A stretch of 64,000 nucleotides of DNA. It comes from Cirrosporium novae-zelandiae. Taxonomy: Eukaryota. Made by a program: the position numbers and the translations under genes. Below the pieces are notes generated by a model that made no database searches, was not told the DNA's origin, and worked only from the letters and a program-made list of their open reading frames with translations. Below, piece after piece: positions 10,543-26,171 of the stretch; within the stretch, counting starts at the first letter, position 1; each line of letters starts with the position of its first letter. Location: the NCBI GenBank assembly GCA_026023565.1, contig JAPETS010000005.1, positions 496,001 through 560,000 of the forward strand, in the 5' to 3' direction.

Positions 10543-12327
10543 TGCGGTTTTGTTCTACGATGACTGTATCTTGAAACCTATCCGCCTTTATAACCTGATA
10601 CAGTACTTGGTATACCCTATGTTGTCAAGCCGCGATCTTTAATTGGCCTCGATGAACTACCCAACAAGCTATATGGGCGCTTCGTTTGAAGACAGACTTA
10701 CTCCTCTAAACATGGTTTTTGCTATTAGCGATATGCTCAATACAGTTTTGGCTACTTTTGTGTTTTTCTCAGCTCTATTGAGCTTGGGACCGAGGTATGT
10801 ATGGGACTTGTACCCACTAACCTACATGTGCACCTAATAATATATTATTAATCACCATATTATGAATTATTGAATTGATGATGAATACTCTAAGATGGCT
10901 GTAAGCACTACATTTGTAATGTCTTAAGAAATAGCGCCACGATGCTATGGCAATACATGAAATAAAAAGAAGGAACTGGTAACGATGATACTGAGGTATA
11001 TTTCATGCTATTTCCAAGTTTATTTCACAGTGCTTTTAGCACTCGTCTCTTTTCCGGGTCTCTCGAGAAATGAGATAGACTAACAGTTATATAAAGTCCA
11101 GAGTTCAAGGTTCATATGAATAAACACAGGTTAGTCTCGGCGGCTATTGTGTTTCTACCGAAGACGGTAAGGGAATGAAACTGCAGAAATAAAAGAGATT
11201 ATTGGCTAAATTTTATTTAGAACTACCTGCTTTCGAGTGTTTAAAGACAACAACAACACCACCATACCACCAACCAGATCAAGCTCTCAATCCATCCAAC
11301 ATAACAGTCTTCTTTCGTTATCGGCGTACCCAAGCAAAATATATAGCCTTGACATTTTTAATTTTACCATGCCAGACTTACGACTCTCCGAAATAAAGAC
11401 CATAAATATCATGATCATAATCTCTGATGCTCGCTTATCGTTTTCTCTGAATTCAAATCTCTAACGGTTTTATACTACCCTGAATCATTGTGCGATAGCT
11501 TGTGATAATATTGACCCTCTACCATTATCGCTAGGCGTTTAAGGCAAGTAGTTTCTGGCCTAGGTACCAAACAATTAATGATGATCACCTTGATTAAGTA
11601 ACTCTATATGCATTTAGCTATGCTATTACAACACAACGAAGGAAATCACTACCCTAAGCCACGTTAAGGGGAAGCTCTCCAGCATCAATAATATATTACA
11701 TGAATTACATCCTCGCTATCTTCTCGTCCCTTGTTCTCTTATCACATGTAGCTGGCAACCTACCCCTGTCTGCAGGCTTACAGAAAATTGATATAATGAT
11801 ACAAGCTTACAACCCAAGATAAGGGGGCTTCAATTTTTATACGAAACTGGTTTAAGTTGTCAAGACGGAAATGTTCACAATGTGAGTTAAGATTATGTGT
11901 TTGTAAATATTAATATTCACCTAGGTACCTAGGTATTTTATGGGAAACTTAAGTTTATAGGCGTGGAGTGATTTAAGATTAAGAATTGCTTTCTATCCTA
12001 AAATGCTTTGAATGCTTAGAGTTTCGATAAACAACTCTGCTTATTCCCTATTTACTAGATATATCCTGAACTCCAACAGAGGCAACTGTCGAATGCCAAA
12101 TTCTGAAATTGTAGAGATAATACATCTTTTCTCCTCACTAACCGGCTGGAAGACATTTTATACCGCAATTGACATTATTGATGGGCCCGCTTAGCTTAGT
12201 GTTTATTTTCATCCGTGTACATTAAAATAACAGCCGGGCCCAATTTCCCTCTTTACTTTCTATCTTCCTCGTCTATAACTCTTCAGATTTGATCTGGATA
12301 CAAAATTTTCTAATCCCAATCCCAATC

Positions 12328-14292
12328 ATGACAACACAAACCCCGCCTCGTAATCTGTCAAAGTTCTATCTGCCGCTGAACTCCTCTATTAACGCCCAAC
12401 CCAGCCCCCCTCTTATTTCGCCTATCAATGCAATTCCCTACTCTCCTTTTATATCTACCGAGTTTGGTAGTTCGATATATGAGCAATCATTCCATCGATG
12501 GCCTGGACGAGCTCATGTCAATCGTCTCTTGCAGCATGCTAAGATATTTTGTGGCAGCCTAGGTTTCTGGCTCTCAATGATATTCTTTGCATTCGTGCTG
12601 TGGACGTTTAATGCAGGGAGAGATGGACTTGACTTCGTGAGGGTGGGATCAAACTCGCTGAAGCATGAACTTCTTGACTATGGAGTTACAAGAGGCCTGC
12701 ATTTCTATCCTGCCAATCACATGAAGATACGTTGTGTTGGGCGCTGGATAATGTCACCAAATTCGTTACGCAAAGATGGAACTTTCCCAGGTAAGCCACT
12801 CCAATGGCCATCTCAACCTTCCAAGGATCGCTTTTTTAATGACGAAGAAGGAGTCTATTTTGATGTCAAGATTACCAATACTAGCTTGCTGTTTTTGTCA
12901 TTGAACAACCACCCTATGCAGACACTATCATCCCATAGATCAGAACCCCTAGTATCCCTATCTTCAGTAAATCCAGGTCACATATTCCCCCAACCACTTG
13001 GTACCTCTCCAACACCCGCCCCTCCAATATCACTTCTTACTCAAACAAATCAAGAGGATCTTATTCTCTTACATAATTGTTCCGGGCTTGTACCTCTACA
13101 TCGTGATTTGAATAGAAGTGAAACTTACACCATCCGGGTTAGCGCGCTAATGGGAGACGGCATCGCTGATGGAGATCTCGAGTTTCGAGGTCTCTGGCTA
13201 AATAGGGGTGGCAGACTTCTCCACGTTAATAGGCCGCGGCTACCAGATGACACGGGAGATGATTCATTGGACGGATTCCCTGAGAGGCTTCCTCAATTAG
13301 GCGTTTCTAGGTCACACTCACTAACGGAAAAACCGTTGCCAAATCACTACCCAGATTTAAATGAGGTTGATCATAATGACAGCCACCGATTCAATGAAGA
13401 TACTAAAATAATAGAGATCGTCTCGGATTCTCCTGGACCTCTCCTAAAATCACGCAGGCTGAATCAGGCTGAGTTTGTGAGTAATATACTGGGTGAAGTC
13501 CTCGGATGGGGTTCTTTGGTTGCCAATATGTTTGGCATCGATCATGTGAACGTCGGAGTTGAGGATATGTGCCTGATTCAAAATTGTATTGGAGCACAGG
13601 GCAATCCAGTTGGCCTTGGAGATATGTTTTTCCGCAGTGGTATTAGCAATTCTCCCTCTTTTTCTCGGCCATGGATCTTTCAAAGTTATACACCTCATAT
13701 CCTACTACTCAGTATTGGAGACTCGGATTACTACTCTTTCGAGACTCATGGTCAAGAATACAACAAATCGCTGTGGGATCTACAGAGCCAGTTCGAAGAT
13801 ACTTATGTCTCTTTTGTCAAAGCCATCAGGCAATTTTCGTATCCAGCATCTCGATCTGCTCGCAACAAAAAGCCTGCACCGGCTTCTATCTTTATTGTAC
13901 GGCCTTTCAGAGGCCAACTTGAACATGCTACACAAGGTGTTGTGAATAGACTCCGCGCTGACGGGGACAAATTGATTTTCTGGCTAGACACTACGGGGTG
14001 GCTAGACGTTGAAAATACACTGAATGGTGGCAAGAGTGAAGATTTCTCATTAGACAATAGCATTGATCCTCCAAGATGGCGCTTGAACGAAAGTGGAAAC
14101 CGAAAGGTAGCTGTCTTTTTGCACATGCATTTGTGCCGCTATCTCTCCCAAACAGGGGGAAAATGTCCGTTTCTTGAGCATGAAGTCTACACTGGGAATA
14201 TGTACGATCCGACGGAAGTGGCTTTTAGAAAGTATATTGAAGATGAAAAGAAGAGAAGGCTCAAGGATCTGTTTTGGAAGGATACTACTTGA
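12328..14292 (+). CDS. Membrane-anchored SGNH/GDSL-like protein (CE2-like architecture), catalytic motifs degenerate
   Basis: One TM helix (LGFWLSMIFFAFVLW), VGRW...FPGVYFDV after removing a 60-nt in-frame intron (12791-12850), block-III-like HILLLSIGDSD and FEDTYVSFVKAIR. Confidence 0.6.
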   Translation: MTTQTPPRNLSKFYLPLNSSINAQPSPPLISPINAIPYSPFISTEFGSSIYEQSFHRWPGRAHVNRLLQHAKIFCGSLGFWLSMIFFAFVLWTFNAGRDGLDFVRVGSNSLKHELLDYGVTRGLHFYPANHMKIRCVGRWIMSPNSLRKDGTFPGKPLQWPSQPSKDRFFNDEEGVYFDVKITNTSLLFLSLNNHPMQTLSSHRSEPLVSLSSVNPGHIFPQPLGTSPTPAPPISLLTQTNQEDLILLHNCSGLVPLHRDLNRSETYTIRVSALMGDGIADGDLEFRGLWLNRGGRLLHVNRPRLPDDTGDDSLDGFPERLPQLGVSRSHSLTEKPLPNHYPDLNEVDHNDSHRFNEDTKIIEIVSDSPGPLLKSRRLNQAEFVSNILGEVLGWGSLVANMFGIDHVNVGVEDMCLIQNCIGAQGNPVGLGDMFFRSGISNSPSFSRPWIFQSYTPHILLLSIGDSDYYSFETHGQEYNKSLWDLQSQFEDTYVSFVKAIRQFSYPASRSARNKKPAPASIFIVRPFRGQLEHATQGVVNRLRADGDKLIFWLDTTGWLDVENTLNGGKSEDFSLDNSIDPPRWRLNESGNRKVAVFLHMHLCRYLSQTGGKCPFLEHEVYTGNMYDPTEVAFRKYIEDEKKRRLKDLFWKDTT

Positions 14293-14719: not shown

Positions 14720-15714
14720 ATGCCGGAACTTAGTAAAGCTTGCTGCAGGTACGAGAGTATCATCAATCTGACCAATGGTATATTTTAGAGCTAATTGAGC
14801 TAACCAATTTCTCGTAGTATTCCTCCCATCATTAGCAAGGGCTATAATCCCAAGGGGAAATATGAAACCATCGCTGGCTTCAAAACATGTATGAATTATG
14901 GATGTATCTCATTTTCAATAGCCACTTATTAACATATCTATTATAGATGTTACCGGGCCTGCAGATGCCAAAAAGGCCATCTTAATGGTCTTCGACATTT
15001 TTGGCTTCTTCCCTCAAACCCTCCAGGGTGCAGATATCCTTGCATACTCAGACGAACATACAAAATACCGCGTTTACATGCCCGATTGGTTCGAAGGAGA
15101 GCCCATGGACATCTCGAATTACCCACCCGACACGGATGAGAAAAAAGAGAAGCTGGGCAAATTCTTCGCTACAAAGGCTGCTCCTCCGAAAACTGTAGAG
15201 AATGTGAAAAAGGTGATGGCTGAGCTCAAGGGGAAGGCAGATTCTTGGGCTGGTTTGGGAATGTGTTGGGGTGGGAAGGTAAGGACATAGTGATATGATA
15301 ATAATTGGAAGAAGGCGCTCACGACTTGTCTAGGTTATTTCATTGTCAGCCCAACCCGGAACTCCATTCAAGGCAGTGGCCGAATGCCACCCGGCGATGG
15401 TAGACCCTAAGGATGCAGAGGGGGTTTCGATACCTCTCTGTATGCTTGCATCCAAGGACGAACCTGTAGAGGATGTCAAGAATTTTGAAAAGGCCTTGAA
15501 GGCCCCACACTATGTTGAGACATTCAGCGACCAGATTCATGGTTGGATGGGAGCTCGGTAAGTTTCTACAATGAGTGTTCTTTCATGGCTAGAAATACAG
15601 GAATATAAGCTAACGTTTTCAACCTCAAGCTCTGACCTGGAGAGTCCCCGGGTTCGCGAGGAGTATGAGAGGGGCTACAAGACTCTTCTTCACTTTTTCC
15701 ATGAACACTTGTGA
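14720..15714 (+). CDS. Dienelactone hydrolase family protein (multi-exon); an in-frame upstream ATG at 14609 may extend it
   Basis: MPELSKACC..., FDIFG, PDWFEG, nucleophile elbow GMCWGG, ECHPA, HGWMGAR. Confidence 0.9.
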
Positions 15715-16057: not shown

Positions 16058-17141
16058 TTAGAGTCGGGCATTGTTCTTGGGAGGTTTAGTGGGGGCACCT
16101 TCAGGGGTCACATAGGCCTGGAAAAATAATTAGCGTTGACCAATCGAACCGTGCAATGGAATCAACCGCAACGGACCTTGGTCATACCACCATCCACCAC
16201 AAAGTCAGCTCCGTTCACGAAGCTGCTTTCATCTGTAGCTAGGAAAAGAACGGCTTGAGCTTGCTCGATAGCTTCTCCGAAACGGCCAGTTGGGAAGTGA
16301 ATCTCTCGTCTCAACCGCTTTGGCTTGTCGTCACCTAGCCAGTCCTGAAGAAGGGGAGTGTTGAGGGGAGCGGGACAAAGGGAATTGAACCGAATACCCT
16401 CGCGCGCATGTACGATGGCCAATTCTCTAGTCATGGCGAGGACAGCCCCCTTGCTGGCAGTATAGGCCAGTTGTGGTGTTGCGCTGCCGACAAGCGCGAC
16501 GACGGATGCAGTGTTGATGATGCTGCCCTTGGCTTTCTTGTGCTTCCTCATGCTAATTACGGCGTGCTTGCTTCCATACCAGACACCCTTGACATTGATC
16601 TTCATTGTCAGATCCCATATTTTCTCAGGAGTCTCCACTGCATCGGCGTCATCGGCATGCATGATTCCAGCGTTATTGAACACGACATCAACACCGCCCC
16701 AGGGATCTACGGCCCCGATCATGGCAGCTACGTCTGATTCTTTGGAGACGTCGCACTTGAATGTTTCGACGCGAATAGCGTTGGGGACGAGGGACTTTAC
16801 TTTGGCAAGAGCTTTTTCGAGTGCGGGTTCGGAGATGTCGGCCATGAGGACGGAAGCGCCTTGCTGGGCAAAAAGGATGGTTGTTTCGAGGCCAATGCCC
16901 CTGGGGATTTTGGTTAGCTGAGTTAATGTGAGATGATATGTCCATGATGAATGCGCACAATTGACTTTGGAATTTAGGGTAATGTAATTTTTAAAGCACC
17001 AGAGCTGAATTGTAGAATATGGCAAGAACCAAAAAATGGTGGAAGCTTCATGAGCAAGATATGAGCATTTACTTACCCAGCAGCACCGGTGATAACAGCA
17101 TTCTTGCCTGCGAGGCGTCCTTGAGGAGCACTACTTCCCAT
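16058..17141 (-). CDS. Classical short-chain dehydrogenase/reductase (3 exons)
   Basis: Exon 1 MGSSAPQGRLAGKNAVITGAAG spliced to GIG, NNAG, catalytic YTASK, last exon AYVTPEGAPTKPPKNNARL*. Confidence 0.93.
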
Positions 17142-17618
17142 GTTTGATCAAGGAAACGAATGCAATAACTGGAGGTGTTGAATATTGCAGGTAGGTGCTA
17201 GAAGATGGGTTTTCTATGATGAGCTAGCTGTTAGTTTAGTTGATTCATGTACAGGTACAATCCTGTGGTAATAATAAGAATAATAATAATATTTTGCCGG
17301 GGGCATTTCGGCTAGTCCTCCGATAACGGTTTGATAGGACGGAACGAACTCGGAATTGATAATGATTAATTAGAAGTTGCTGTTACATACCTGAAAACAA
17401 TTGTTTTGTGTTTGTGTCAACGATGTCAAAGAAGCTTGATGAAAGAGCTCGAGTGTAAAAATCAGTCAGTATTTAATAGCATTGTTGCTGGTGGGTTGTT
17501 GGCTCCCACAGCTCCTCACCTTATCTTCTTTTAGTGAGGCCAAATGAGTAGGCTTAGGTCTTGGTCTAGTCCCACATTGTTAATTACCGTAAGCCTGGTT
17601 GTAGACCGCTACAGCGCT

Positions 17619-17646
17619 GTGGTAATGGTAATGGTAATGGTAATGA
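17619..17646. repeat. (TGGTAA)n hexanucleotide microsatellite, about 4 copies
   Basis: Direct reading: gtggtaatggtaatggtaatggtaatg. Confidence 0.8.
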
Positions 17647-17946
17647 CCAGTCCTCCAGTCCTCACGTGCCCCTCTATCCACTATCCCAGTAGCGCCCGGG
17701 CCTGTAGATAAGATTAGCGTCAACAATGACGATAGGCGAGTCCAGCTGCAACTGATGCGACTCTGTACGGAAATACAAGGATAATAGAGATACACAGTCT
17801 TTTGAATAAGAGAATGAATAAATAATTAATTAATCCACCCACGATTTTTAACTCTTGATATTATTTATCGTTCCCCCCGTTGACGTACACGGCCTTCAAC
17901 TATCTCCTCGTTTCCTCGCCCATTCCTGAACAACAACCCAAAGATA

Positions 17947-19752
17947 ATGGCAGAAACTACGTTGGAATCGCTACCACAACTCCTAGAGAATGACACTAAG
18001 GTCAAATTAGCAGGCGTCGACGCTGACGGCATTTTGCGCGGGAAGCTCGTATCGAAGAAGAAATTCCTTTCGATAGCCAAGGATGGATTCGGTTTCTGCT
18101 CTGTCATCTTTGGTTGGGATATGAACGATGAGACATATTTCAAAGAGCTTAAAATAAGTAACAAGGAGAATGGATACAAGGATCTCATTGCTATTCCTGA
18201 TCTTTCCACCTATCGAAGAATTCCCTGGGAGGGTGATGTTCCGTTTTTCCTTGTCAGTTTTTATGACCCTGATACAAAAAAGCCTGTTAGCGCATGCCCA
18301 CGAGGGTTGTTGAAGACAGCTTGCGAAAAGTTGGAAAGCCAAGGGTATAGCGCAATGGCAGGATGTACGTAGAGCCCGTAGCTATCTAAGGCTGCTCTAT
18401 CCGCAAAAAATATTTTGTCATGAGTTTTTTTTTTTTTTTTTTGCTAACGACACCGTGGAAAACATAGCGGAATACGAATTCTACTGTTTTAGGACACCTG
18501 AAAGCCGCTCATCACCAGCGTCAAACCGTGATTCGACAACAACAGCCAGATTCTTGAAAGAGCAACCCGTGAACTCGTTACCATCCCTCTCGGAGGGAAT
18601 GTTTGGTTATAGTATTTTAGATCCCGTGCATAATCAAGATTGGTACTACAGTATCTACGACACGTGCGAGAAGTTTAGATGTGGGATAGAAGGGTGGCAT
18701 ACCGAAAGCGGACCAGGTGTCTTCGAAGCAGTACGTTGCGCGCTCAGTGGTTCAATCCAGTTCTGAAGGGACGGTCTCGGCCCGCTAATACACTTAAAAC
18801 TTCCCAGGCGCTGGAATTTGGCGAGATCAAAGGCATGGCAGATAAAGCCGGGCTTTTCAAGTCAGTCTAATTTTACGTTACTCCTCATATACCGTGCATG
18901 ATGCATGTACCATCAACCGTCAGCTGACTACAATCCAGATACACCGTCAAAGCCCTGAGCAGCAAGTATGGGATAACCCCCTGCTTCATGGCTAAACCGC
19001 GCCAGGGCCTCCCAGGAAACTCAGGTCATATGCACGTTTCAATCGTCGACAAATCCGGAAAAAACCTTTTCTACCGAGGGGAAAAAGACCCCAACCCAAA
19101 ATACCCCGACCTAGCCTACCTCTCGGACATGGGCCGGCACTTCTTAGCCGGGATCCTAGAAGGCCTCGCAGACATCATGCCCATACTCGCACCAACAGTA
19201 AATTCCTACAAAAGACTAGTGGAGAATTTCTGGGCCCCAGTTACCGTCTCATGGGGCCTGGAGCATAGAGCAGCCTCCATCCGCCTCATCTCCCCACCGA
19301 CATCGAGTCCCAAAGCCACGAGATTCGAGATCCGAACCCCAGGAGCGGACACGAATCCCTTCTACGTGCTTGCGGCAATCCTGGCCCTAGGTTGGAGGGG
19401 CGTCGAGAAGAAACTCGAGATCGGAATCCCACCCCTCGGCAAGGGCGATGATGTGGGCGGGCAGTCAGATCAAGGCTTGCGGCTCGCAAAGTCGCTTAAG
19501 GAAGCGAATGCCAGGTTCATGGCTAAAGAGAGCTTGGCTCGAGAGGTTTTTGGGGATGAGTTCGTGGACCATTTTGGTGGGACGAGAGAACATGAAGTCA
19601 AGCTTTGGGAGGAGGCTGTTACAGATTGGTATGTATTATTATTATTATTTTTTCATAGAGGGCCGAAAGGTGGAAAAGAAATAAGAGATGTTGTACTGAT
19701 ATGATATGTGTGCTATTATAGGGAAGTACGAAGATATATAGAAATGGTTTAA
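17947..19752 (+). CDS. Glutamine-synthetase-like (GSI-type) gamma-glutamyl ligase
   Basis: GVDADGILRGK, GFCSVIFGWD, EYEF, HTESGPGVFE, FMAKPRQGLPGNSGHMHVS, NSYKRL, WGLEHRAASIR, FEIRTPGADTNP; spliced end W-EVRRYIEMV*. Prokaryote-type GSI-like, not the GSII housekeeping enzyme. Confidence 0.92.
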
Positions 19753-20316: not shown

Positions 20317-21666
20317 CTACCCCCTCCTACTCGGCATCCTCGCTTCGATCTTCTCTACGGTATCGAACTGGCATCCCGGTTCCCCGCATCTGCAAAGCCG
20401 ATCCTTGTGCCAATAAAGATCCCCATAATCGCACGTGATTTCTTCGAAGACCCCGATGCTCCTGACCGTAATCGCCAACATCCTCCGCTTCTCCCCATAA
20501 CTGAACAGCTGAAACACCGCCCCAGGATTGCAGGAATGGTTCATGAACCTCGTCCAATTCCCGAACCGGGTTGCGTCGACGGCGGCCACCCACCTGTTAT
20601 CGGTGTCGTCTGCGACGGGCACTTCGAGGGAGTAAATGGTGCCTCTGCACATGTGGGGGTGGCGAATTTCGCCGACGTACTCGCCGAGGATTGTGCCAGC
20701 GGGGATGGCCTGGAGGGAGCGGACGCCGATGCCTTTTCCCGAGTATTCTCTCAGCTCGATGTGCAGCTGGGGTAGGGAAGAGGGATTGCAGGGACAGATG
20801 TATGGGGAGTTGCAAATCTTGCAGTTGCGGTCGGCGGAGCGCCGGGTCATCGGGTCAATTGGGTAGGTGAGGAAGGGCCAGTACGGTGGACGGGCGCGCG
20901 GGAAGAAGCTGTGGTGGTAAATATTGGATGTGATGTTTGTATATGGGAGGCGGCTGGCTGTGCCTGAGAGGGTTAACGCCCACTGGTGCGGGTGATCAAT
21001 GCGGTTGATTGTGAGAGTTGACTTCATATTAGAGGCGAGAGAGGTGAGCCCTTTGTGGGCGGCGTGGAGGACCTCCAGTGGAGCCTGCCAGGGGAGGTCT
21101 CTGGATTTCGCGAAGAGCTCTAGGCTCAGCTTGTTGGGGGTGATAGCCAGGCAGAGGACCCTCCAGACGTGGTCTGGGTAAGTCATCACAGCCATGAGGA
21201 AGGCGTGCGAGTGGAGGCAGATGCTGAGGAGCATCCAGCTTAGCATTTTGGCGAACACTGCGAGCCGTTTTGCGGGTTGAGGACCCGTCCAGTTTTGGCC
21301 CGAGGAGAGAACGCCGTAGGCGGCGAAGGTTGATTCTAGGGCTTCTAGTACGTTGTTTAGCCTTTCTTGTATGCTGTTAGCGCCTTGGGCCTGATTAGCT
21401 GAGAAAATGCCTACCTGATTGATGCTGGTTGCGGTCTCATGGATCTCAGCGTACATGCTCTGCACACATTCCAAGGCCATGCTCTTGGCTAGTCCTGAGG
21501 TTTGGGTGGCCATGGTCGTTGGCGATCCAAGGTTGTTAGTTCTGGTTATCTTGTTTGTAGACTGGGTTTTCGAATCCCTAGTGAAGAATTGGTTTGGGGA
21601 TATGTTGGACTTCGGAGTTGTTATAACCATCAATGGCATTGTTTGGTTTCTTTGTCTACGAGACAA
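20317..21666 (-). CDS. SET-domain protein lysine methyltransferase (start uncertain)
   Basis: GKGIGVRS...GEYVGEI, RFMNHSCNP, EEITCDYG, post-SET CRCGEPGC, short Cys cluster CKICNSPYICPC. The ORF-track start is a TTG next to a possible splice acceptor. Confidence 0.8.
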   Translation of the reverse strand: MSRRQRNQTMPLMVITTPKSNISPNQFFTRDSKTQSTNKITRTNNLGSPTTMATQTSGLAKSMALECVQSMYAEIHETATSINQVGIFSANQAQGANSIQERLNNVLEALESTFAAYGVLSSGQNWTGPQPAKRLAVFAKMLSWMLLSICLHSHAFLMAVMTYPDHVWRVLCLAITPNKLSLELFAKSRDLPWQAPLEVLHAAHKGLTSLASNMKSTLTINRIDHPHQWALTLSGTASRLPYTNITSNIYHHSFFPRARPPYWPFLTYPIDPMTRRSADRNCKICNSPYICPCNPSSLPQLHIELREYSGKGIGVRSLQAIPAGTILGEYVGEIRHPHMCRGTIYSLEVPVADDTDNRWVAAVDATRFGNWTRFMNHSCNPGAVFQLFSYGEKRRMLAITVRSIGVFEEITCDYGDLYWHKDRLCRCGEPGCQFDTVEKIEARMPSRRG

Positions 21667-22041
21667 AGAAGTTGAATAATGCCTTGTTTAATATCAATAG
21701 CTTTGAGAGAGGTATAATGGATTGAAGAGGGATCCTTTGTTTTTTTTTCCCTTTTCTGATAATACAATGGCTATTGTCGTGACCGAGTTCTCATTGGCTG
21801 GACGAAAGTTAGGGGAATGGGAAGACTTCCAAGGCCTTATCTCAAAGAGGTTCATTTTCAAGTATCGATGGGGAAGGCCAACGTCGTCCATCTTGTGGTT
21901 CCATGCTAGACTTTTGCATTAGACACTTGCCTATTATTTTCGTACAACAGCTAAACCACGCACCAATGAATGGCGCTTATTAAAATGTCGCAACCAGTAT
22001 TGCAAAACACGAATATTCTCAATATATATCTTTTTCTGGAC

Positions 22042-23844
22042 CTAAAAGGCTGCTTCAGTATTTCCCTCGCCCATACTCCTGTTACTACTGCTCCCGCTTT
22101 GGATGGCTCCAACAATTCCATCCATATATGCCGCACCACTCCATTTCTGATGTGTTAGTACGTCCACCCCCAGCTCCTTCTCCCGCCGTTGGATGAGTTT
22201 CACATATGCCAACATCCCATCCTTTTTGAAATCTCTTGATAGCTCTGCAGTCACAGTTGCATTCGAATGAAGTCCGGCGAGAGATATTAGTTGAAGGATG
22301 AATCCTTCTTTAGCTAGGTCCCAAATAAAAGATTTGAGTGATGCCTCATCGAAGCCCTGGCCCATCCAATTGAATGAGGGACTGAGATTATAGACTAAAA
22401 GCTTGCCTGGATGTACTACCCTTATCCTTCTCGCAAAGTTGGAGGCCTTCTGTACGCTTGGATCACCCGTCTCAACCCAGAGCATATCAGCAAAAGGTGC
22501 AAATTCAATTGCCCGTTTGGTGGCTGCGGCTATGCCTGCCCGATAATGGTAGAAACCTTCTCGAGTACGTGGAATGTCCCACGAGAAGAAGACGGGAGTC
22601 CGTGTGTATTGCTCAGCAATCTTCCGGCGGCGAGATAGGGAGAGATTATGGTCTTTCGCAACTTGGGAATTATACTCTGCTATTTTTGACTGGGGGTCCC
22701 CTTCTTTTTCTAGATGTGTAATGACAGCCTCATCAAAAGTCATTAATTGGTGTTTTTTGACCCATTCGGCTTCATACGTATTGATTTCCTCCGCAGAGGC
22801 ACCCTGCAGTTCCATCGCCTGTAGGGTTTCTGACAGAGGCTCGACTTCCTCATTGACACCTAAAACGAATTCGTGATCACGTATATCAACTGCACTGCTG
22901 ATCAAGCGTCCGCTCTCAGAATCAGTACGAGCAATAATGAGGTTTTCACAACCCATCATGTCCCATTGGAATCTTGCTGCTACTAGCCGATTGATATGGT
23001 CACCCATTGGAACCAATACCTTGCCTGCTAGATGCCCGCATTTTTTTCCACCGTGGAGCTGGTCTTCAAAGTGGACTGCGGCAGCTCCATTCTCTGCCAT
23101 CAGCTTCGCCAACTTTGTAACCGCGGTCAGGCCTCCATGCCCAGTGTCTCCATCTGCTATGATGGGCCTCAGATAGTCAATATATGGGGTTTTAGCTCTT
23201 TCTTCTGCAGACATTTTTCTTCTTGCATCGAAATGTTTACGATCATGTAGCTGTTGGGCTTTAAAAAGACGTTGGACTTGGTTCGGAACCGTGTTATAAG
23301 GATAATCACCGAAATCGGGAGAAACCTCGTTAGTAGTCGTGAGTAAAGAGGAACAGGCCCACCCAGAGATGTAGAGAACCTCTTGGTTTGCAGCTTGCTG
23401 AGTCATTTGAACCGGATCAACAGCGCCTAGAGTGTGTAGGGGTTCTCCATTTTTAGCCCTCTCTTGCAACAAAGAGAAAAGTTTTCGGCCCGTCATGGAG
23501 CTTGGGTAAGTTTGGTATAGAGTCCCTCTTTTGCTGACAACTTGCTCAGCTGAATATGGTCTTGTTATACCCTCAAAACGTGGACTCTTCCACCATTGCT
23601 GTACTTCCCCCACCTGTTGTTTGAAAAGTGCATCTTCGGCGTCTCCAGCCTTGTCAGCTGTTGAAAGGAGCTGGAATGTTTCTGAAGCACTGATTGCTGA
23701 CCCCATTGGTGCTGCTGGGGCAAGGGATGTATGGATTATTCTAATAGTAGCCGTAGGTAAGGGAGTTGAAATTGGGAGTAACCGAATAATAGCTCGTCGA
23801 CTGCTGGATGGGCGCAGAAGCGTCCTAGCCGAACGGCTGATCAT
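22042..23844 (-). CDS. mcl1: Mitochondrial 2-methylisocitrate lyase
   Basis: ICL-family KKCGHLAGK and NLSPSFNW; ISLAG (Ser) rather than the ICL ITLAG; Arg/Ser-rich presequence; divergent from methylcitrate synthase. Confidence 0.9.
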   Translation of the reverse strand: MISRSARTLLRPSSSRRAIIRLLPISTPLPTATIRIIHTSLAPAAPMGSAISASETFQLLSTADKAGDAEDALFKQQVGEVQQWWKSPRFEGITRPYSAEQVVSKRGTLYQTYPSSMTGRKLFSLLQERAKNGEPLHTLGAVDPVQMTQQAANQEVLYISGWACSSLLTTTNEVSPDFGDYPYNTVPNQVQRLFKAQQLHDRKHFDARRKMSAEERAKTPYIDYLRPIIADGDTGHGGLTAVTKLAKLMAENGAAAVHFEDQLHGGKKCGHLAGKVLVPMGDHINRLVAARFQWDMMGCENLIIARTDSESGRLISSAVDIRDHEFVLGVNEEVEPLSETLQAMELQGASAEEINTYEAEWVKKHQLMTFDEAVITHLEKEGDPQSKIAEYNSQVAKDHNLSLSRRRKIAEQYTRTPVFFSWDIPRTREGFYHYRAGIAAATKRAIEFAPFADMLWVETGDPSVQKASNFARRIRVVHPGKLLVYNLSPSFNWMGQGFDEASLKSFIWDLAKEGFILQLISLAGLHSNATVTAELSRDFKKDGMLAYVKLIQRREKELGVDVLTHQKWSGAAYMDGIVGAIQSGSSSNRSMGEGNTEAAF

Positions 23845-24570
23845 GGTGAATTAGATATATGGAGAGAATATTAAAAGGCTATTTCATGATAACTGGGCCG
23901 TGAAGAAGACGAGAGACGCCTGATACAATTCTAGGATATGGGGGTTTAGCTTTCAAAATTAAGCACTTGAGATATCAAAGTACGATTTGATGAAATTGTT
24001 AATGATAGGGTGTTCATTGTCCTTCAAACCGAATGAATATCCTCGGTCTACGGATAATCGCAGTGTTGACTGTGTGTACTTTTGTCATCCCTGCCACCCC
24101 CGTTTTTCGCTTCCCCGCCAAATGCCAAACGATGGGGCCATGGGGAGCACTGGGGGGGGGCAACTGGGGGCTTCCCTATCTAATCTGAGATCCTTGTATC
24201 AATCCAACGCCTCCCCCTCCTCTATCTTCCATTACATTCATCCTTCTCAACCTCAACAAATTTCCTGATTGTTTCTCTGTCCGAGGTATTTATTGATATA
24301 TTTACCTCGGTCCATTGGCTCAATAGCCCCTTGGAAAAAGAAGTATTACTGGAACCCCCCTACAACTCCCTCAGCTTTCCTAGGTTACCAGATCTGGAGC
24401 TCCGCAATCATCATCCATGTAAAACGGTTCCTTGTCGTCCTTTCCACCGGGTTGGCAAAATTATACCCATTCATCCTCTATAAAACTCGCTACTATTATC
24501 CATATCTCTACTACTCTTTATCAGTTTTCTATTTTGCCTTGGTCAGGCCCTCGTCAGTTTTATCGTCAAG

Positions 24571-26171
24571 ATGGCTCCATTGAATCATTTGGTGTGCAAT
24601 GCTCTCCGAGCTGCTCGGGCATGTTCCCTCTCCACAAGCTTAGGCATTATTGAAAATTGCTGACTATCGCTTTCTGTAGGCCCCAACAGTTAAGCGTACA
24701 TCTACCCTTCTCTCCAGACACTATGCATCAGCTTCAGAACCATCTCTTAAGGAGACACTGGCGGGGGTTATCCCAGCTAAAAGAGAACTCTTGAAGAAAG
24801 TGAAAAGCCATGCAGGAAAGTCGATAGGTGAAGTCAAGGTTGAAAACACAATTGGAGGCATGAGGTTCGTTATGTGTTGAATCCCCTGATTATGCTGGTT
24901 CTAACACAAATGGTGGTGAATATAGGGGCTTAAAGGGAATGGTCTGGGAAGGTTCGGTTCTCGATTCCCATGAGGGTATCCGATTCCACGGCAAGACAAT
25001 CAAAGAATGTCAGGAGGTGCTCCCAAAGGGCACATCAGGCACCGAGATGCTGCCAGAAGCAATGTTCTGGCTTCTTCTCACTGGACAGGTTCCATCAACA
25101 CCACAAGTTCGACAGTTCTCCCGCGAACTAGCGGAAAAAGCAGCACTTCCAAAGTTTGTCGAGAATATGATGGACCATTTCCCAACAGATCTCCACCCAA
25201 TGACTCAATTTGCTTGTGCTGTGTCTGCGCTGAACCATACATCTGTATTCGTTAAAGCTTATGAGAAAGGGTTAAACAAAGCTGAATACTGGGAACCGAC
25301 TTTCGATGACTGCATCTCTCTGATAGCAAAATTGCCTACTATCGCAGCCAAGATCTATCAGAATTCCTATCGCGGCGGGGGGCCATTGCCTGCTAAAATT
25401 GATCTTGATCAAGATTGGGCATATAACTTCGCAGCTATGCTAGGAAAGGGGGACAAGGAGCACGAAAGCTTCCAAGATCTGCTACGGTTATACTTGGCTT
25501 TGCATGGAGATCATGAAGGTGGAAATGTATCTGCGCACGCGACCCATCTTGTTGGAAGTGCCCTCAGTGATCCGTTCCTAAGCTATAGCGCGGGACTTCA
25601 AGGTCTGGCGGGTCCATTACACGGGTAAGGCCCATCCCCCATTCTCATTAGGGATGTTGAATTTTAACGGATTTGTAGGCTTGCCGCGCAAGAAGTGCTA
25701 AGATGGACATTAGCCATGAAGCAGCAGATCGGCGATTCCTGTTCAGATGAAGAGGTCAAAGACTTCCTGTGGAAGACCCTCAAATCAGGACAAGTTGTAC
25801 CGGGATATGGTCACGCCGTTCTTCGAAAGCCTGATCCCCGCTTCTCAGCCCTAATGGATTTCGCATCTTCCCGTCCAGAAATAGCCCAAGATCCCATCTT
25901 CAAGCTGGTGAAGCAGAACTCCGAGATCGCACCACAGGTGCTCATCGAACACGGCAAGACCAAAAATCCATACCCAAACGTCGACTCGTCATCCGGCGTT
26001 CTCTTCCACCACTACGGCTTCCGCGAAACACTGTACTATACCGCCACTTTTGGCGTCAGCCGTGGCCTGGGACCCCTGGCCCAGTTGATCTGGGACCGCG
26101 CTTTGGGCCTCCCGATCGAGCGGCCAAAGAGTATCAATCTTCAAGGCATTCTTGATTTGGTTGAAAAGTAA
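24571..26171 (+). CDS. mcsA: Mitochondrial 2-methylcitrate synthase (4 exons)
   Basis: Presequence, [63 protein letters not shown]; context next to methylisocitrate lyase. Confidence 0.88.

What the first reader, a model, noticed from the sequence alone, without database searches (positions are those of the whole stretch)
16058..19752. Divergent GS-like ligase + SDR pair: candidate fungal gamma-glutamylation pathway for amine (ethanolamine/polyamine) catabolism
Seen: a GSI-type glutamine-synthetase-like gene and an SDR lie head-to-head across about 800 bp containing several HGATAR elements (e.g. near 17321, 17333, 17357, 17520, 17706, 17730). Known: in Streptomyces coelicolor the GS-like GlnA4 gamma-glutamylates ethanolamine and is clustered with an SDR and an aldehyde dehydrogenase; E. 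coli PuuA does the same for putrescine. From recall, the SDR here (INTAS..ALVGSATPQLAYTASKGAVLAMTRELA...LCPAPLNTPLL...VDGG...AYVTP) resembles that glnA4-linked SDR type. Inference: a bacterial-like amine-protection/oxidation module kept as a nitrogen-regulated bidirectional unit. I do not know of a biochemical characterisation of this in fungi.
Basis: partly seen in the sequence, partly recalled or inferred. Interest (0 to 1): 0.8.

Follow-up and report, generated by a model that had tools for sequence, protein, structure and literature searches.

The report
Fungal glutamyl-ligase and dehydrogenase gene pair
A mould carries two back-to-back genes, filed as "glutamine synthetase" and "oxidoreductase", that most likely attach glutamate to ethanolamine or a similar small amino alcohol and then oxidise it, a nitrogen-scavenging route described in bacteria and not yet tested in fungi.

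Summary
An intact 484-aa GS-like gene and a 282-aa SDR lie head to head across 805 bp with 8 HGATAR sites. The layout recurs in 22 of 27 informative dereplicated fungal contigs, and GATAAG is four-fold enriched across 32 such gaps. The ligase keeps all metal, glutamate and ATP residues but lacks the ammonium-specific E327, Y179 and D50 loop, so it is probably a gamma-glutamylamide ligase. It is not a GlnA4 orthologue (AU p=9e-8). Its bacterial sister clade often follows an ethanolamine permease (28 of 54) and precedes an Fe-alcohol dehydrogenase (35 of 54), never this SDR (0 of 60). The SDR's nearest bacterial relatives sit beside GlnA4-type ligases. The pair is therefore a mosaic whose halves both point to ethanolamine; polyamines fit poorly. 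An unlinked ALDH of the operon type is present; no matching hydrolase was found. Substrate and co-expression are untested. The scan noted this pair before in four other genomes. Verdict: new fungal variant of a known bacterial pathway, interest 0.55.

The parts
17947..19752 (+). GS-like gamma-glutamylamide ligase, 484 aa, 5 exons (17947-18364, 18468-18730, 18808-18860, 18939-19628, 19722-19752)
   Evidence: Gene model; PF00120; residue mapping and tree; a close homologue (P0002) folds as GSI
16058..17141 (-). Classical SDR, 282 aa, 3 exons (17141-17077, 16900-16177, 16117-16058); TGxxxGIG, Asp after beta-2 (NAD preference inferred), NNAG, S, YxxxK
   Evidence: identical to P0121
17142..17946 (.). 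805-bp divergent gap, presumed shared promoter
   Evidence: promoter function inferred
17321..17362 (+). Three HGATAR sites near the SDR start (17321, 17332, 17357)
17520..17526 (-). GATAAG/HGATAR site
17706..17735 (+). GATAAG site (17707) and HGATAR site (17730)
17865..17905 (-).

Best explanation
The pair encodes the first two steps of a nitrogen-scavenging route for ethanolamine. Step 1 (chemistry class well supported, substrate inferred): the ligase uses ATP to join glutamate to the amine, giving gamma-glutamyl-ethanolamide, which masks the amino group. Step 2 (inferred): the NAD-type SDR oxidises the free hydroxyl to the aldehyde. Step 3 (inferred): an unlinked bacterial-type ALDH (P0575, G000:C80) oxidises it to gamma-glutamyl-glycine. 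Step 4 (weakly inferred): an unidentified hydrolase, perhaps a class I glutamine-amidotransferase-like protein, releases glycine and glutamate. GATA factors of the AreA/NIT2 kind switch both genes on from the shared gap when preferred nitrogen is scarce (inferred from motif conservation).
For: Ligase: E141, E143, E219, E226, H275, H277, R337, R355, R360, E375 and R377 are kept, while E327 is W343, Y179 is F185, N264 is P270 and the D50 loop reads FCSVIFGWD. This is the pattern PMC6529630 and PMC6478659 give for gamma-glutamyl ligases. The genome also holds a GSII-type locus (L003). Fungal ligases are sister (100/99) to a bacterial clade. Among 60 GTDB loci scoring at least 280 bits, 28 of 54 with enough upstream DNA have an ethanolamine-permease homologue upstream and 35 of 54 an Fe-ADH downstream. 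All 6 permeases tested from this clade pass the TIGR00908 cut-off. SDR: sister (95/95) to SDRs beside GS-like genes; 7 of the 7 best plasmid hits lie beside a GS-like gene, and L008, L167 and L169 also carry a TIGR00908 permease. Linkage: 22 divergent, 2 tandem and 3 without SDR among 27 loci; in 37 loci of at least 4 kb the SDR is adjacent in 31, against 9 for the next commonest neighbour. GATA: HGATAR 176 against 87 expected (largest shuffle 114) and GATAAG 59 against 14 in 32 gaps, while the downstream control shows 51 against 66. GATAAG is the top de novo 6-mer, in 30 of 32 gaps. P0575 groups (SH-aLRT 99) with ALDHs of glutamylation operons, is widespread in ascomycetes and has 7 HGATAR in 800 bp upstream.
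Against: No enzyme, growth or expression data for this locus. No member of the sister bacterial clade is characterised in the papers I read, and the clade is not uniform: 13 of 54 loci have a kinase-like gene instead, mostly followed by a HAD gene, and related plasmid operons carry aminotransferases, a GMC oxidoreductase or a deacetylase. Fungal ligases read FCSV where the bacterial clade reads FCDV or FCNV near the amine site. The role of SCO1611, the model for the SDR, is only predicted in PMC6529630. No C26 or FGase hydrolase was found in G000. Four copper amine oxidase loci offer another route for amines. The L007 and L091 permeases are not TIGR00908. The abstract of PMC13740247 reports that the M. 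tuberculosis GS4 isoform binds ethanolamine suboptimally, so family context need not fix the substrate. The pair sits in an old synteny block whose other genes also persist, it is split in Aulographum hederae, and the contigs are related to each other and are the best 80 of 556 matches.
Confidence: 0.55

Rival explanations
1. Same two-step chemistry, but the main substrate is another amino alcohol (for example an aminopropanol, serinol or alaninol) or several of them.
For: The fungal ligases are only 40-45% identical to the permease-linked bacterial clade and differ at FCSV against FCDV. Gene contexts within the clade vary. A citrate-synthase gene of the window's 24600-26171 type lies near the ligase in 4 of 37 loci, which would suit a three-carbon product if it is a methylcitrate synthase (my inference).
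Against: Both halves lead separately to TIGR00908 ethanolamine permeases. The citrate-synthase linkage is far rarer than the SDR linkage (4 against 31 of 37) and looks like plain synteny.
Confidence: 0.24
2. The ligase makes a gamma-glutamyl amide for storage, detoxification or signalling, as proposed for FluG, and the SDR is co-regulated but not the next catabolic step.
For: No C26 or FGase hydrolase was found and no pathway ALDH is linked. FluG is a fungal precedent for a non-catabolic glutamyl ligase (PMC6478659).
Against: The FluG-like locus L002 is only 21% identical and lies far away in the tree. The SDR is of the type that sits in glutamylation operons, and an operon-type ALDH is kept in the genome.
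Confidence: 0.1
3. A PuuA/GlnA3-like polyamine (putrescine, spermidine) glutamylation module.
For: Same enzyme class. One related plasmid operon (L006) lies near a transporter annotated for spermidine/putrescine and an aminotransferase.
Against: NF045547 scores 160 against a cut-off of 650. PuuA is distant in the tree. A glutamylated diamine needs an amine oxidase or transaminase next, not an alcohol dehydrogenase (established pathway logic; PMC9397018). GlnA3 itself was not in my tree.
Confidence: 0.06
4. A second true glutamine synthetase lying next to an unrelated SDR through neutral synteny.
For: Databases and fungal papers call the family glutamine synthetase. It would also be GATA-regulated. 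The best structural matches are GSI-alpha enzymes.
Against: E327, Y179 and the D50 loop are replaced. TIGR00653 scores 218 against a cut-off of 429. In M. oryzae, deleting MoGLN3 (probably this family, not tested by sequence) raised glutamine and gave no defect in appressoria or virulence (PMC8229676). Of 8 strong SDR matches in the genome, this bacterial-operon type is the one beside the ligase.
Confidence: 0.05

Closest known systems
Streptomyces coelicolor ethanolamine cluster SCO1610-SCO1615 (GlnA4 = SCO1613, SDR SCO1611, ALDH SCO1612, amidotransferase SCO1615; PMC6529630)
   Same: GS-like ligase without E327/D50/Y179, paired with a PRK06057-type SDR. The fungal SDR is 44-53% identical to SDRs of actinobacterial clusters with this layout. 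Streptomyces locus L162 matches the paper's GlnA4 numbering at R325, F331, R348, E359 and R361, so it serves as a proxy.
   Different: The ligase is only about 30% identical and not orthologous (AU p=8.7e-8). It has W, P and F where the proxy has F331, E265 and I181. The fungal unit has two genes on a divergent GATA-rich gap, with no linked ALDH, hydrolase, permease or GntR-type regulator.
Uncharacterised bacterial operons eat - GS-like - Fe-ADH - C26 hydrolase - ALDH (Bacteroidota, Bdellovibrionota, Myxococcota, Burkholderiales, Spirochaetota; L066, L100, L101, L113, L121, L136 and others)
   Same: Sister clade of the fungal ligases (100/99), 40-45% identical, sharing the GMFGYS, LPG and WAP motifs.
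   Different: They use an Fe-ADH, never this SDR (0 of 60), and carry their own permease and C26 hydrolase. Their function is itself inferred from gene context.
Phaeobacter / Chromohalobacter / Agrobacterium ethanolamine gamma-glutamylation operon (PMC10132767)
   Same: Same four-step chemistry: ligase, alcohol dehydrogenase, ALDH, amidohydrolase. PDB 5DM3, which I recall as the Chromohalobacter ligase, is the second-best PDB sequence match to the fungal profile.
   Different: The ligase with this operon layout in my set (L166, assigned by its RpiR and FGase neighbours) falls in the GlnA4-like branch at 31% identity. The operon uses a TRAP transporter; an FGase-type hydrolase was not found in G000.
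E. coli PuuA (gamma-glutamylputrescine synthetase)
   Same: GS-like fold and loss of the E327 flap residue.
   Different: Below the NF045547 cut-off and distant in the tree. Its pathway's second step is an oxidoreductase acting on the amine end, not an SDR.
Fungal FluG C-terminal domain (PMC6478659)
   Same: Fungal GSI-like protein proposed to be a gamma-glutamyl ligase.
   Different: A separate locus (L002, 21% identity; the FluG label is my inference). The window's protein has only PF00120 and no amidohydrolase domain.
Fungal 'Gln3' / 'gln2' genes (M. oryzae MoGLN3, PMC8229676; Y. lipolytica YALI0D13024g, PMC5311114)
   Same: Probably the same gene family: single-domain, conserved in fungi, dispensable in standard tests. 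The Yarrowia gene is 15-fold higher on ammonium than on peptone, and 2-fold and 5-fold lower in the gzf2 and gzf3 GATA mutants.
   Different: Both papers treat the gene as a glutamine synthetase, and the passages I read mention neither the SDR nor an amine substrate. Orthology to the window's gene was not tested by sequence.

Membership tests
GS-like gamma-glutamylamide ligases (what it works like) | GSI-type catalytic domain and fold | tested here: met
   PF00120; the model of homologue P0002 (pTM 0.83) matches GSI structures with TM about 0.72-0.74
GS-like gamma-glutamylamide ligases (what it works like) | Metal, glutamate and ATP residues conserved | tested here: met
   11 of 11 positions E129, E131, E212, E220, H269, H271, R321, R339, R344, E357, R359 kept, plus G265
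GS-like gamma-glutamylamide ligases (what it works like) | Ammonium-specific E327, Y179 and D50 replaced | tested here: met
   W343 and F185. The D50 column aligns poorly; the loop reads FCSVIFGWD and matches the equivalent loop of 5DM3 and 11ZS
GS-like gamma-glutamylamide ligases (what it works like) | ATP-dependent glutamylation of an organic amine in vitro | not testable with these tools
   Needs purified enzyme
GlnA4 (gamma-glutamylethanolamide synthetase) orthologues | One clade with GlnA4-type ligases | tested here: not met
   AU test on 9 fungal plus 11 GlnA4-type rows against 26 others: lnL 93 lower, p=8.7e-8. I had seen a quick tree first. SCO1613 itself was represented by proxies L162 and L169
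GlnA4 (gamma-glutamylethanolamide synthetase) orthologues | GlnA4 pocket residues (F331, E269) | tested here: not met
   W343 and P270 in the window's protein
GlnA4 (gamma-glutamylethanolamide synthetase) orthologues | Clustered with SDR, ALDH and amidotransferase | tested here: inconclusive
   SDR yes; operon-type ALDH present but unlinked; no C26 hydrolase found
glnA4-cluster SDRs (PRK06057 type) | Reaches the NF004713 cut-off | tested here: not met
   273 bits against 404, though it is the best of 195 families. The bacterial operon SDRs L007 (320) and L008 (356) also miss the cut-off
glnA4-cluster SDRs (PRK06057 type) | Groups with SDRs encoded beside GS-like ligases and shares their motifs | tested here: met
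   Sister 95/95 to L007, L163, L173 in a 26-row tree with few outgroups; motifs; 7 of the 7 best plasmid hits beside a GS-like gene; the one weaker hit I checked (L210) is not
glnA4-cluster SDRs (PRK06057 type) | Oxidises gamma-glutamyl-ethanolamide | not testable with these tools
   Only predicted even for SCO1611 (PMC6529630)
PuuA gamma-glutamylputrescine synthetase | NF045547 cut-off and clade with PuuA | tested here: not met
   P0002 scores 160 against 650; distant in the tree
Canonical type I glutamine synthetase | TIGR00653 cut-off; E327, D50, Y179 present | tested here: not met
   P0002 scores 218 against 429; residues replaced
FluG | N-terminal amidohydrolase fused to the GS-like domain; clade with FluG | tested here: not met
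   Only PF00120; the other GSI-like locus L002 is 21% identical
AreA/NIT2 (nitrogen catabolite repression) targets | Conserved excess of GATAAG/HGATAR upstream | tested here: met
   control is downstream DNA of 27 loci plus three other divergent gaps
AreA/NIT2 (nitrogen catabolite repression) targets | GATA-factor binding and nitrogen-dependent expression of both genes | not testable with these tools
   Only indirect data for a probable Yarrowia homologue

The most novel reading that the evidence does not exclude
Fungi hold a complete, unrecognised, B12-independent gamma-glutamylation route from ethanolamine to glycine. It is built from three genes of different bacterial affinity: a ligase found from chytrids to moulds and sister to the eat/Fe-ADH clade, an SDR of the GlnA4-operon type, and an unlinked operon-type ALDH. 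Filamentous ascomycetes have locked the first two on one GATA-controlled promoter. This would give the orphan fungal 'third glutamine synthetase' its function and show a pathway so far described in bacteria at work in a eukaryotic kingdom.
Probability: 0.45. Interest if true: 0.72.

Novelty: new variant of a known kind. Interest (0 to 1): 0.55.

Why it matters
The ligase family is present from chytrids, Glomeromycota and Basidiobolus to early-diverging yeasts and moulds and is annotated and studied as glutamine synthetase. If it is an ethanolamine glutamyl ligase, genome annotations and metabolic models are wrong for many fungi. The lack of a knockout phenotype on standard tests would be explained, and fungi would gain a route for recycling nitrogen from phospholipid head groups without releasing a free aldehyde. 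The hypothesis can be tested with two purified proteins and deletion strains of laboratory fungi. The chemistry itself is known from bacteria, which limits the surprise.

Tried and rejected
GlnA4 orthology of the ligase: rejected. Peroxisomal targeting of the SDR, suggested by its ARL end: rejected, since a canonical PTS1 occurs in only 4 of 114 full-length homologues. The ALDH adjacent to the pair in 5 of 37 loci as step 3: set aside; it is 24-33% identical to operon ALDHs, falls outside their clade, and its G000 copy has 0 HGATAR in the 600 bp I took as upstream. Ligase fusions with CHS5 or dienelactone hydrolase (P0006, P0024, P0030, P0050): read as merged gene models, because these genes are separate neighbours in the window. 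A second conserved promoter motif: nothing clearly above GATA; other top words may partly come from SDR exon 1 and its intron, which some gaps include. Linked hydrolase, permease or Fe-ADH: none in the 62 fungal-type loci. In G000: only two weak PF07722 hits, which look like GMP-synthase and PABA-synthase GATases (labels recalled), no FGase (71), no EutB (116), permease and Fe-ADH hits at most 28-30% identical (68, 74). RNA: no RNA holder listed. The fold search did not separate GS subfamilies. Searches with recalled Neurospora and Aspergillus locus tags found nothing in one spelling and only passing mentions in another. A Neurospora NIT-2 binding paper I recalled is not held. Look-alike stretches by place in earlier scan notes: none.
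Full report
1. What is in the sequence. The window is DNA of a filamentous ascomycete (G000, contig C74). A GS-like gene runs on the + strand from 17947 to 19752 in five exons (484 aa) and an SDR on the - strand from 17141 to 16058 in three exons (282 aa); both frames are intact and the ATGs are 805 bp apart. All six introns are GT..AG. The SDR model equals public model P0121. Public model P0001 of the ligase lacks 15 residues, including E141 and E143; 118 of 119 homologues have that motif, so my model is the more likely one. There is no RNA support for the introns. The gap holds 8 HGATAR sites against 3.0 expected (20 of 2000 shuffles; 6 of 158 window bins reach 8). The neighbouring divergent gap at 23850-24600 has 6, so in this window alone the GATA signal is modest.

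2. The pair is conserved. A metagenome scan kept the best 80 of 556 matches. I set 18 aside as bacterial-like; the other 62 collapsed to 55 groups at 90% nucleotide identity. Of 27 groups with at least 3 kb upstream, 22 have the SDR head to head, 2 in tandem and 3 have none (L024, L031, L053); with a 2-kb threshold the counts are 26, 2 and 5 of 33. In 37 loci of at least 4 kb the SDR is adjacent in 31. The next commonest neighbours are a dienelactone hydrolase (9), another ALDH (5) and a citrate synthase (4). Public locus tags or accessions are consecutive in four Xylographa species, Botryotinia narcissicola, Lachnellula arida and Penicillium psychrofluorescens, and two apart in X. pallens. 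They share a contig length but are not consecutive in L. subtilissima and Rutstroemia WRK4. They lie on different contigs in Aulographum hederae and Chaenotheca gracillima; two further cases had contigs too short to tell. These contigs are related to each other, so the counts are not independent events, and the pair sits inside an older synteny block. The ligase family reaches Glomeromycota, chytrids, Basidiobolus, Ramicandelaber and early yeasts (7 of 10 looked-up clusters had a named member). I did not establish the SDR or the linkage outside filamentous ascomycetes.

3. The gap. Across 32 divergent gaps (31 loci plus the window) HGATAR occurs 176 times against 87 expected (largest of 200 shuffle sets 114) and GATAAG 59 times against 14; 31 of 32 gaps exceed their own mean. 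DNA downstream of the ligase in 27 loci shows 51 against 66 and 5 against 11. GATAAG is the top word in an unbiased 6-mer search, in 30 of 32 gaps. Some gaps include SDR exon 1 and its intron. GATAAG is the site used by nitrogen GATA factors (PMC5311114, passages). Binding and co-expression are inferred. In that paper's supplement a probable Yarrowia homologue, whose family I did not test by sequence, is 15-fold higher on ammonium than on peptone and lower in both the gzf2 and gzf3 mutants (one supplementary PDF could not be read).

4. The ligase. It keeps all 11 metal, glutamate and nucleotide residues of GSI but has W343 for E327, F185 for Y179 and P270 for N264; the D50 loop aligns poorly and reads FCSVIFGWD. 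PMC6529630 and PMC6478659 (passages) describe this loss as the mark of gamma-glutamyl ligases. Homologue P0002 misses the cut-offs for GSI (218 against 429) and PuuA (160 against 650). The genome has a GSII-type locus (L003) and a distant GSI-like locus (L002, 21%) besides this one. The best PDB sequence matches to the fungal profile are 11ZS and 5DM3, ahead of canonical GS; the fold search gave GSI folds without discrimination. In a 46-row tree (chosen from 98 rows; a 76-row quick tree agreed) the fungal proteins form one clade (100/100), sister (100/99) to bacterial proteins from Bacteroidota, Bdellovibrionota, Myxococcota, Burkholderiales, Spirochaetota and Chlamydiota. Holding fungal and GlnA4-type rows together is rejected (AU p=8.7e-8). 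S. coelicolor GlnA4 was represented by Streptomyces loci with the same cluster layout; L162 matches five residue numbers given in the paper. Outgroup branches are long, so the root is unsure. Among the 60 GTDB loci (of 80 kept, from 600 or more) scoring at least 280 bits, 28 of 54 have an ethanolamine-permease homologue upstream, 35 of 54 an Fe-ADH downstream, 13 of 54 a kinase-like gene, and 0 of 60 the fungal-type SDR. All 6 permeases tested from this clade pass TIGR00908.

5. The SDR. It has the classical TGxxxGIG, NNAG, S and YxxxK motifs and an Asp after the second strand, which by established rules favours NAD. Its best NCBIfam model is PRK06057 (273 bits, cut-off 404) and its best PDB match is 4WEC. 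The 7 best plasmid hits (47-53%) all lie within about 3 kb of a GS-like gene; identity then falls to about 42%, and the one weaker hit I checked has none. In a 26-row tree with few outgroups the fungal SDRs are sister (95/95) to L007, L163 and L173; the actinobacterial glnA4-cluster SDRs are one unresolved node away. The ligases beside these SDRs are only 29-32% identical to the fungal ligase. L008, L167 and L169 carry TIGR00908 permeases; L007 and L091 carry a different permease type. The fungal pair is thus a mosaic: a ligase related to one operon type and an alcohol dehydrogenase related to another, filling the slot held by Fe-ADH in the first.

6. The rest of the pathway. No operon-type ALDH, hydrolase, permease or Fe-ADH is linked in the fungal loci. 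An unlinked ALDH (P0575; G000:C80, L203) is the best match among the fetched G000 ALDH loci for 6 of 7 operon ALDH queries, groups with them (SH-aLRT 99, quick tree), is 70-75% conserved in other ascomycetes and has 7 HGATAR in 800 bp upstream against 3.2 expected. The actinobacterial ALDH query preferred other loci. No C26 or FGase hydrolase was found; two weak class I GATase-like genes (L204, L205) resemble the amidotransferase of one related operon and are only candidates. EutB was not found, and four copper amine oxidase loci offer an alternative route.

7. Mechanism. Shown: anatomy, residue pattern, family placement, linkage, motif enrichment. Inferred: glutamate plus ATP plus ethanolamine gives gamma-glutamyl-ethanolamide; the SDR makes the aldehyde; the unlinked ALDH makes gamma-glutamyl-glycine; an unknown hydrolase frees glycine and glutamate; GATA factors induce the unit under nitrogen limitation. 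This is the route proposed for S. coelicolor, where only the first step is demonstrated (PMC6529630), and for Phaeobacter (PMC10132767, passages). I give 0.55 for ethanolamine, 0.24 for another amino alcohol, 0.10 for a storage or signalling amide, 0.06 for polyamines and 0.05 for a true GS. Against the main reading: no assay, an uncharacterised and non-uniform sister clade, FCSV against FCDV near the amine site, the missing hydrolase, the amine oxidases, and the report that M. tuberculosis GS4 binds ethanolamine suboptimally (PMC13740247, abstract and section 11).

8. Literature and novelty. Ten searches of the held library returned no paper describing this pair or amine glutamylation by this family in fungi; by title, all 8 papers naming gamma-glutamyl-ethanolamine or -ethanolamide concern bacteria or GlnA4 (listing). 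Subscription journals are mostly missing, so this is weak evidence. PMC8229676 (passages, sections 13 and 15) deleted MoGLN3, a single-domain 'Gln3' conserved in fungi and probably this family, and found higher glutamine and normal appressoria and virulence; I saw no amine test in those passages. PMC3601126 and PMC3289889 (passages) only list A. fumigatus AFUA_6G03530 as glutamine synthetase and AFUA_6G03520 as an SDR; the tags were recalled. PMC9397018 and bioRxiv 10.1101/2021.12.09.472016 (passages) gave pathway background. Earlier scan notes describe the same pair in four other genomes and the Bacteroidota operon in one. I read them after reaching my own reading; they are unchecked AI notes and add no support.

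9. Verdict. The feature is real and conserved. It is a new variant of a known kind: bacterial-type amino-alcohol glutamylation, reassembled in fungi as a GATA-rich divergent pair. Interest 0.55.

Noticed in passing
window 18340-18490 and public model P0001: The public gene model of the ligase omits 15 residues including the metal ligands E141 and E143; 118 of 119 homologues keep that motif, so the public model is probably mis-spliced.
   Followed up: yes
window 18124-18126 and about 18620 (ligase residues 60 and 191): The window's ligase has N60 where 114 of 119 homologues have H, and D191 where 107 of 119 have R or K (8 have D). Both lie in loops near the presumed amine site.
   Followed up: partly
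L077:9352-11450 and 13 of 54 close GTDB loci: A Bacteroidota subgroup of the sister-clade ligases is followed by a Pfam-less protein that resembles APH-family phosphotransferases and a HAD-IIA hydrolase, sometimes with GSII nearby, instead of permease, Fe-ADH and ALDH; the substrate is unexplained.
   Followed up: partly
L203:4400-6071 (-), G000:C80: Unlinked ALDH P0575 of the bacterial glutamylation-operon type, conserved across ascomycetes, GATA-rich upstream; candidate third step.
   Followed up: yes
L202:6078-7256 (-), just left of the window; L019, L027, L043, L045, L050: An ALDH that I recall as MSC7-like lies about 19 kb from the pair here and close to it in 5 of 37 fungal loci; it is outside the operon ALDH clade and probably plain synteny.
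   Followed up: partly
window 22042-26171: Divergent isocitrate-lyase-family and citrate-synthase-family genes, probably the methylcitrate-cycle pair (inferred). The synthase is near the ligase in 4 of 37 loci; a malate-synthase-like gene (label by eye) is near it in 3 of 37.
   Followed up: partly
window 14720-15712 (+): Dienelactone-hydrolase-like gene next to the SDR; near the ligase in 9 of 37 loci and merged with it in several public gene models (P0006, P0030, P0050), probably annotation artefacts.
   Followed up: partly
window 12226-14292 (+): A 688-aa open frame with no Pfam hit; a 40% identical homologue lies near the ligase in L053.
   Followed up: no
window 20317-21687 (-): SET-domain gene downstream of the ligase; a homologue lies near the pair in 3 of 37 loci.
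   Followed up: no
P0313, P0365, P0412: Library proteins of 1356-4424 aa with three to six or more GS domains in tandem; origin unknown, possibly assembly or gene-calling artefacts.
   Followed up: no
G000 contigs C35 and C47: Two searches returned hits at identical coordinates on both contigs, which suggests a duplicated contig in the assembly.
   Followed up: no
L204:4155-5150 (+) and L205:4563-5012 (-): Two class I glutamine-amidotransferase-like genes weakly similar (28-44% over short stretches) to the amidotransferase of operon L093; candidates for the missing gamma-glutamyl hydrolase.
   Followed up: partly
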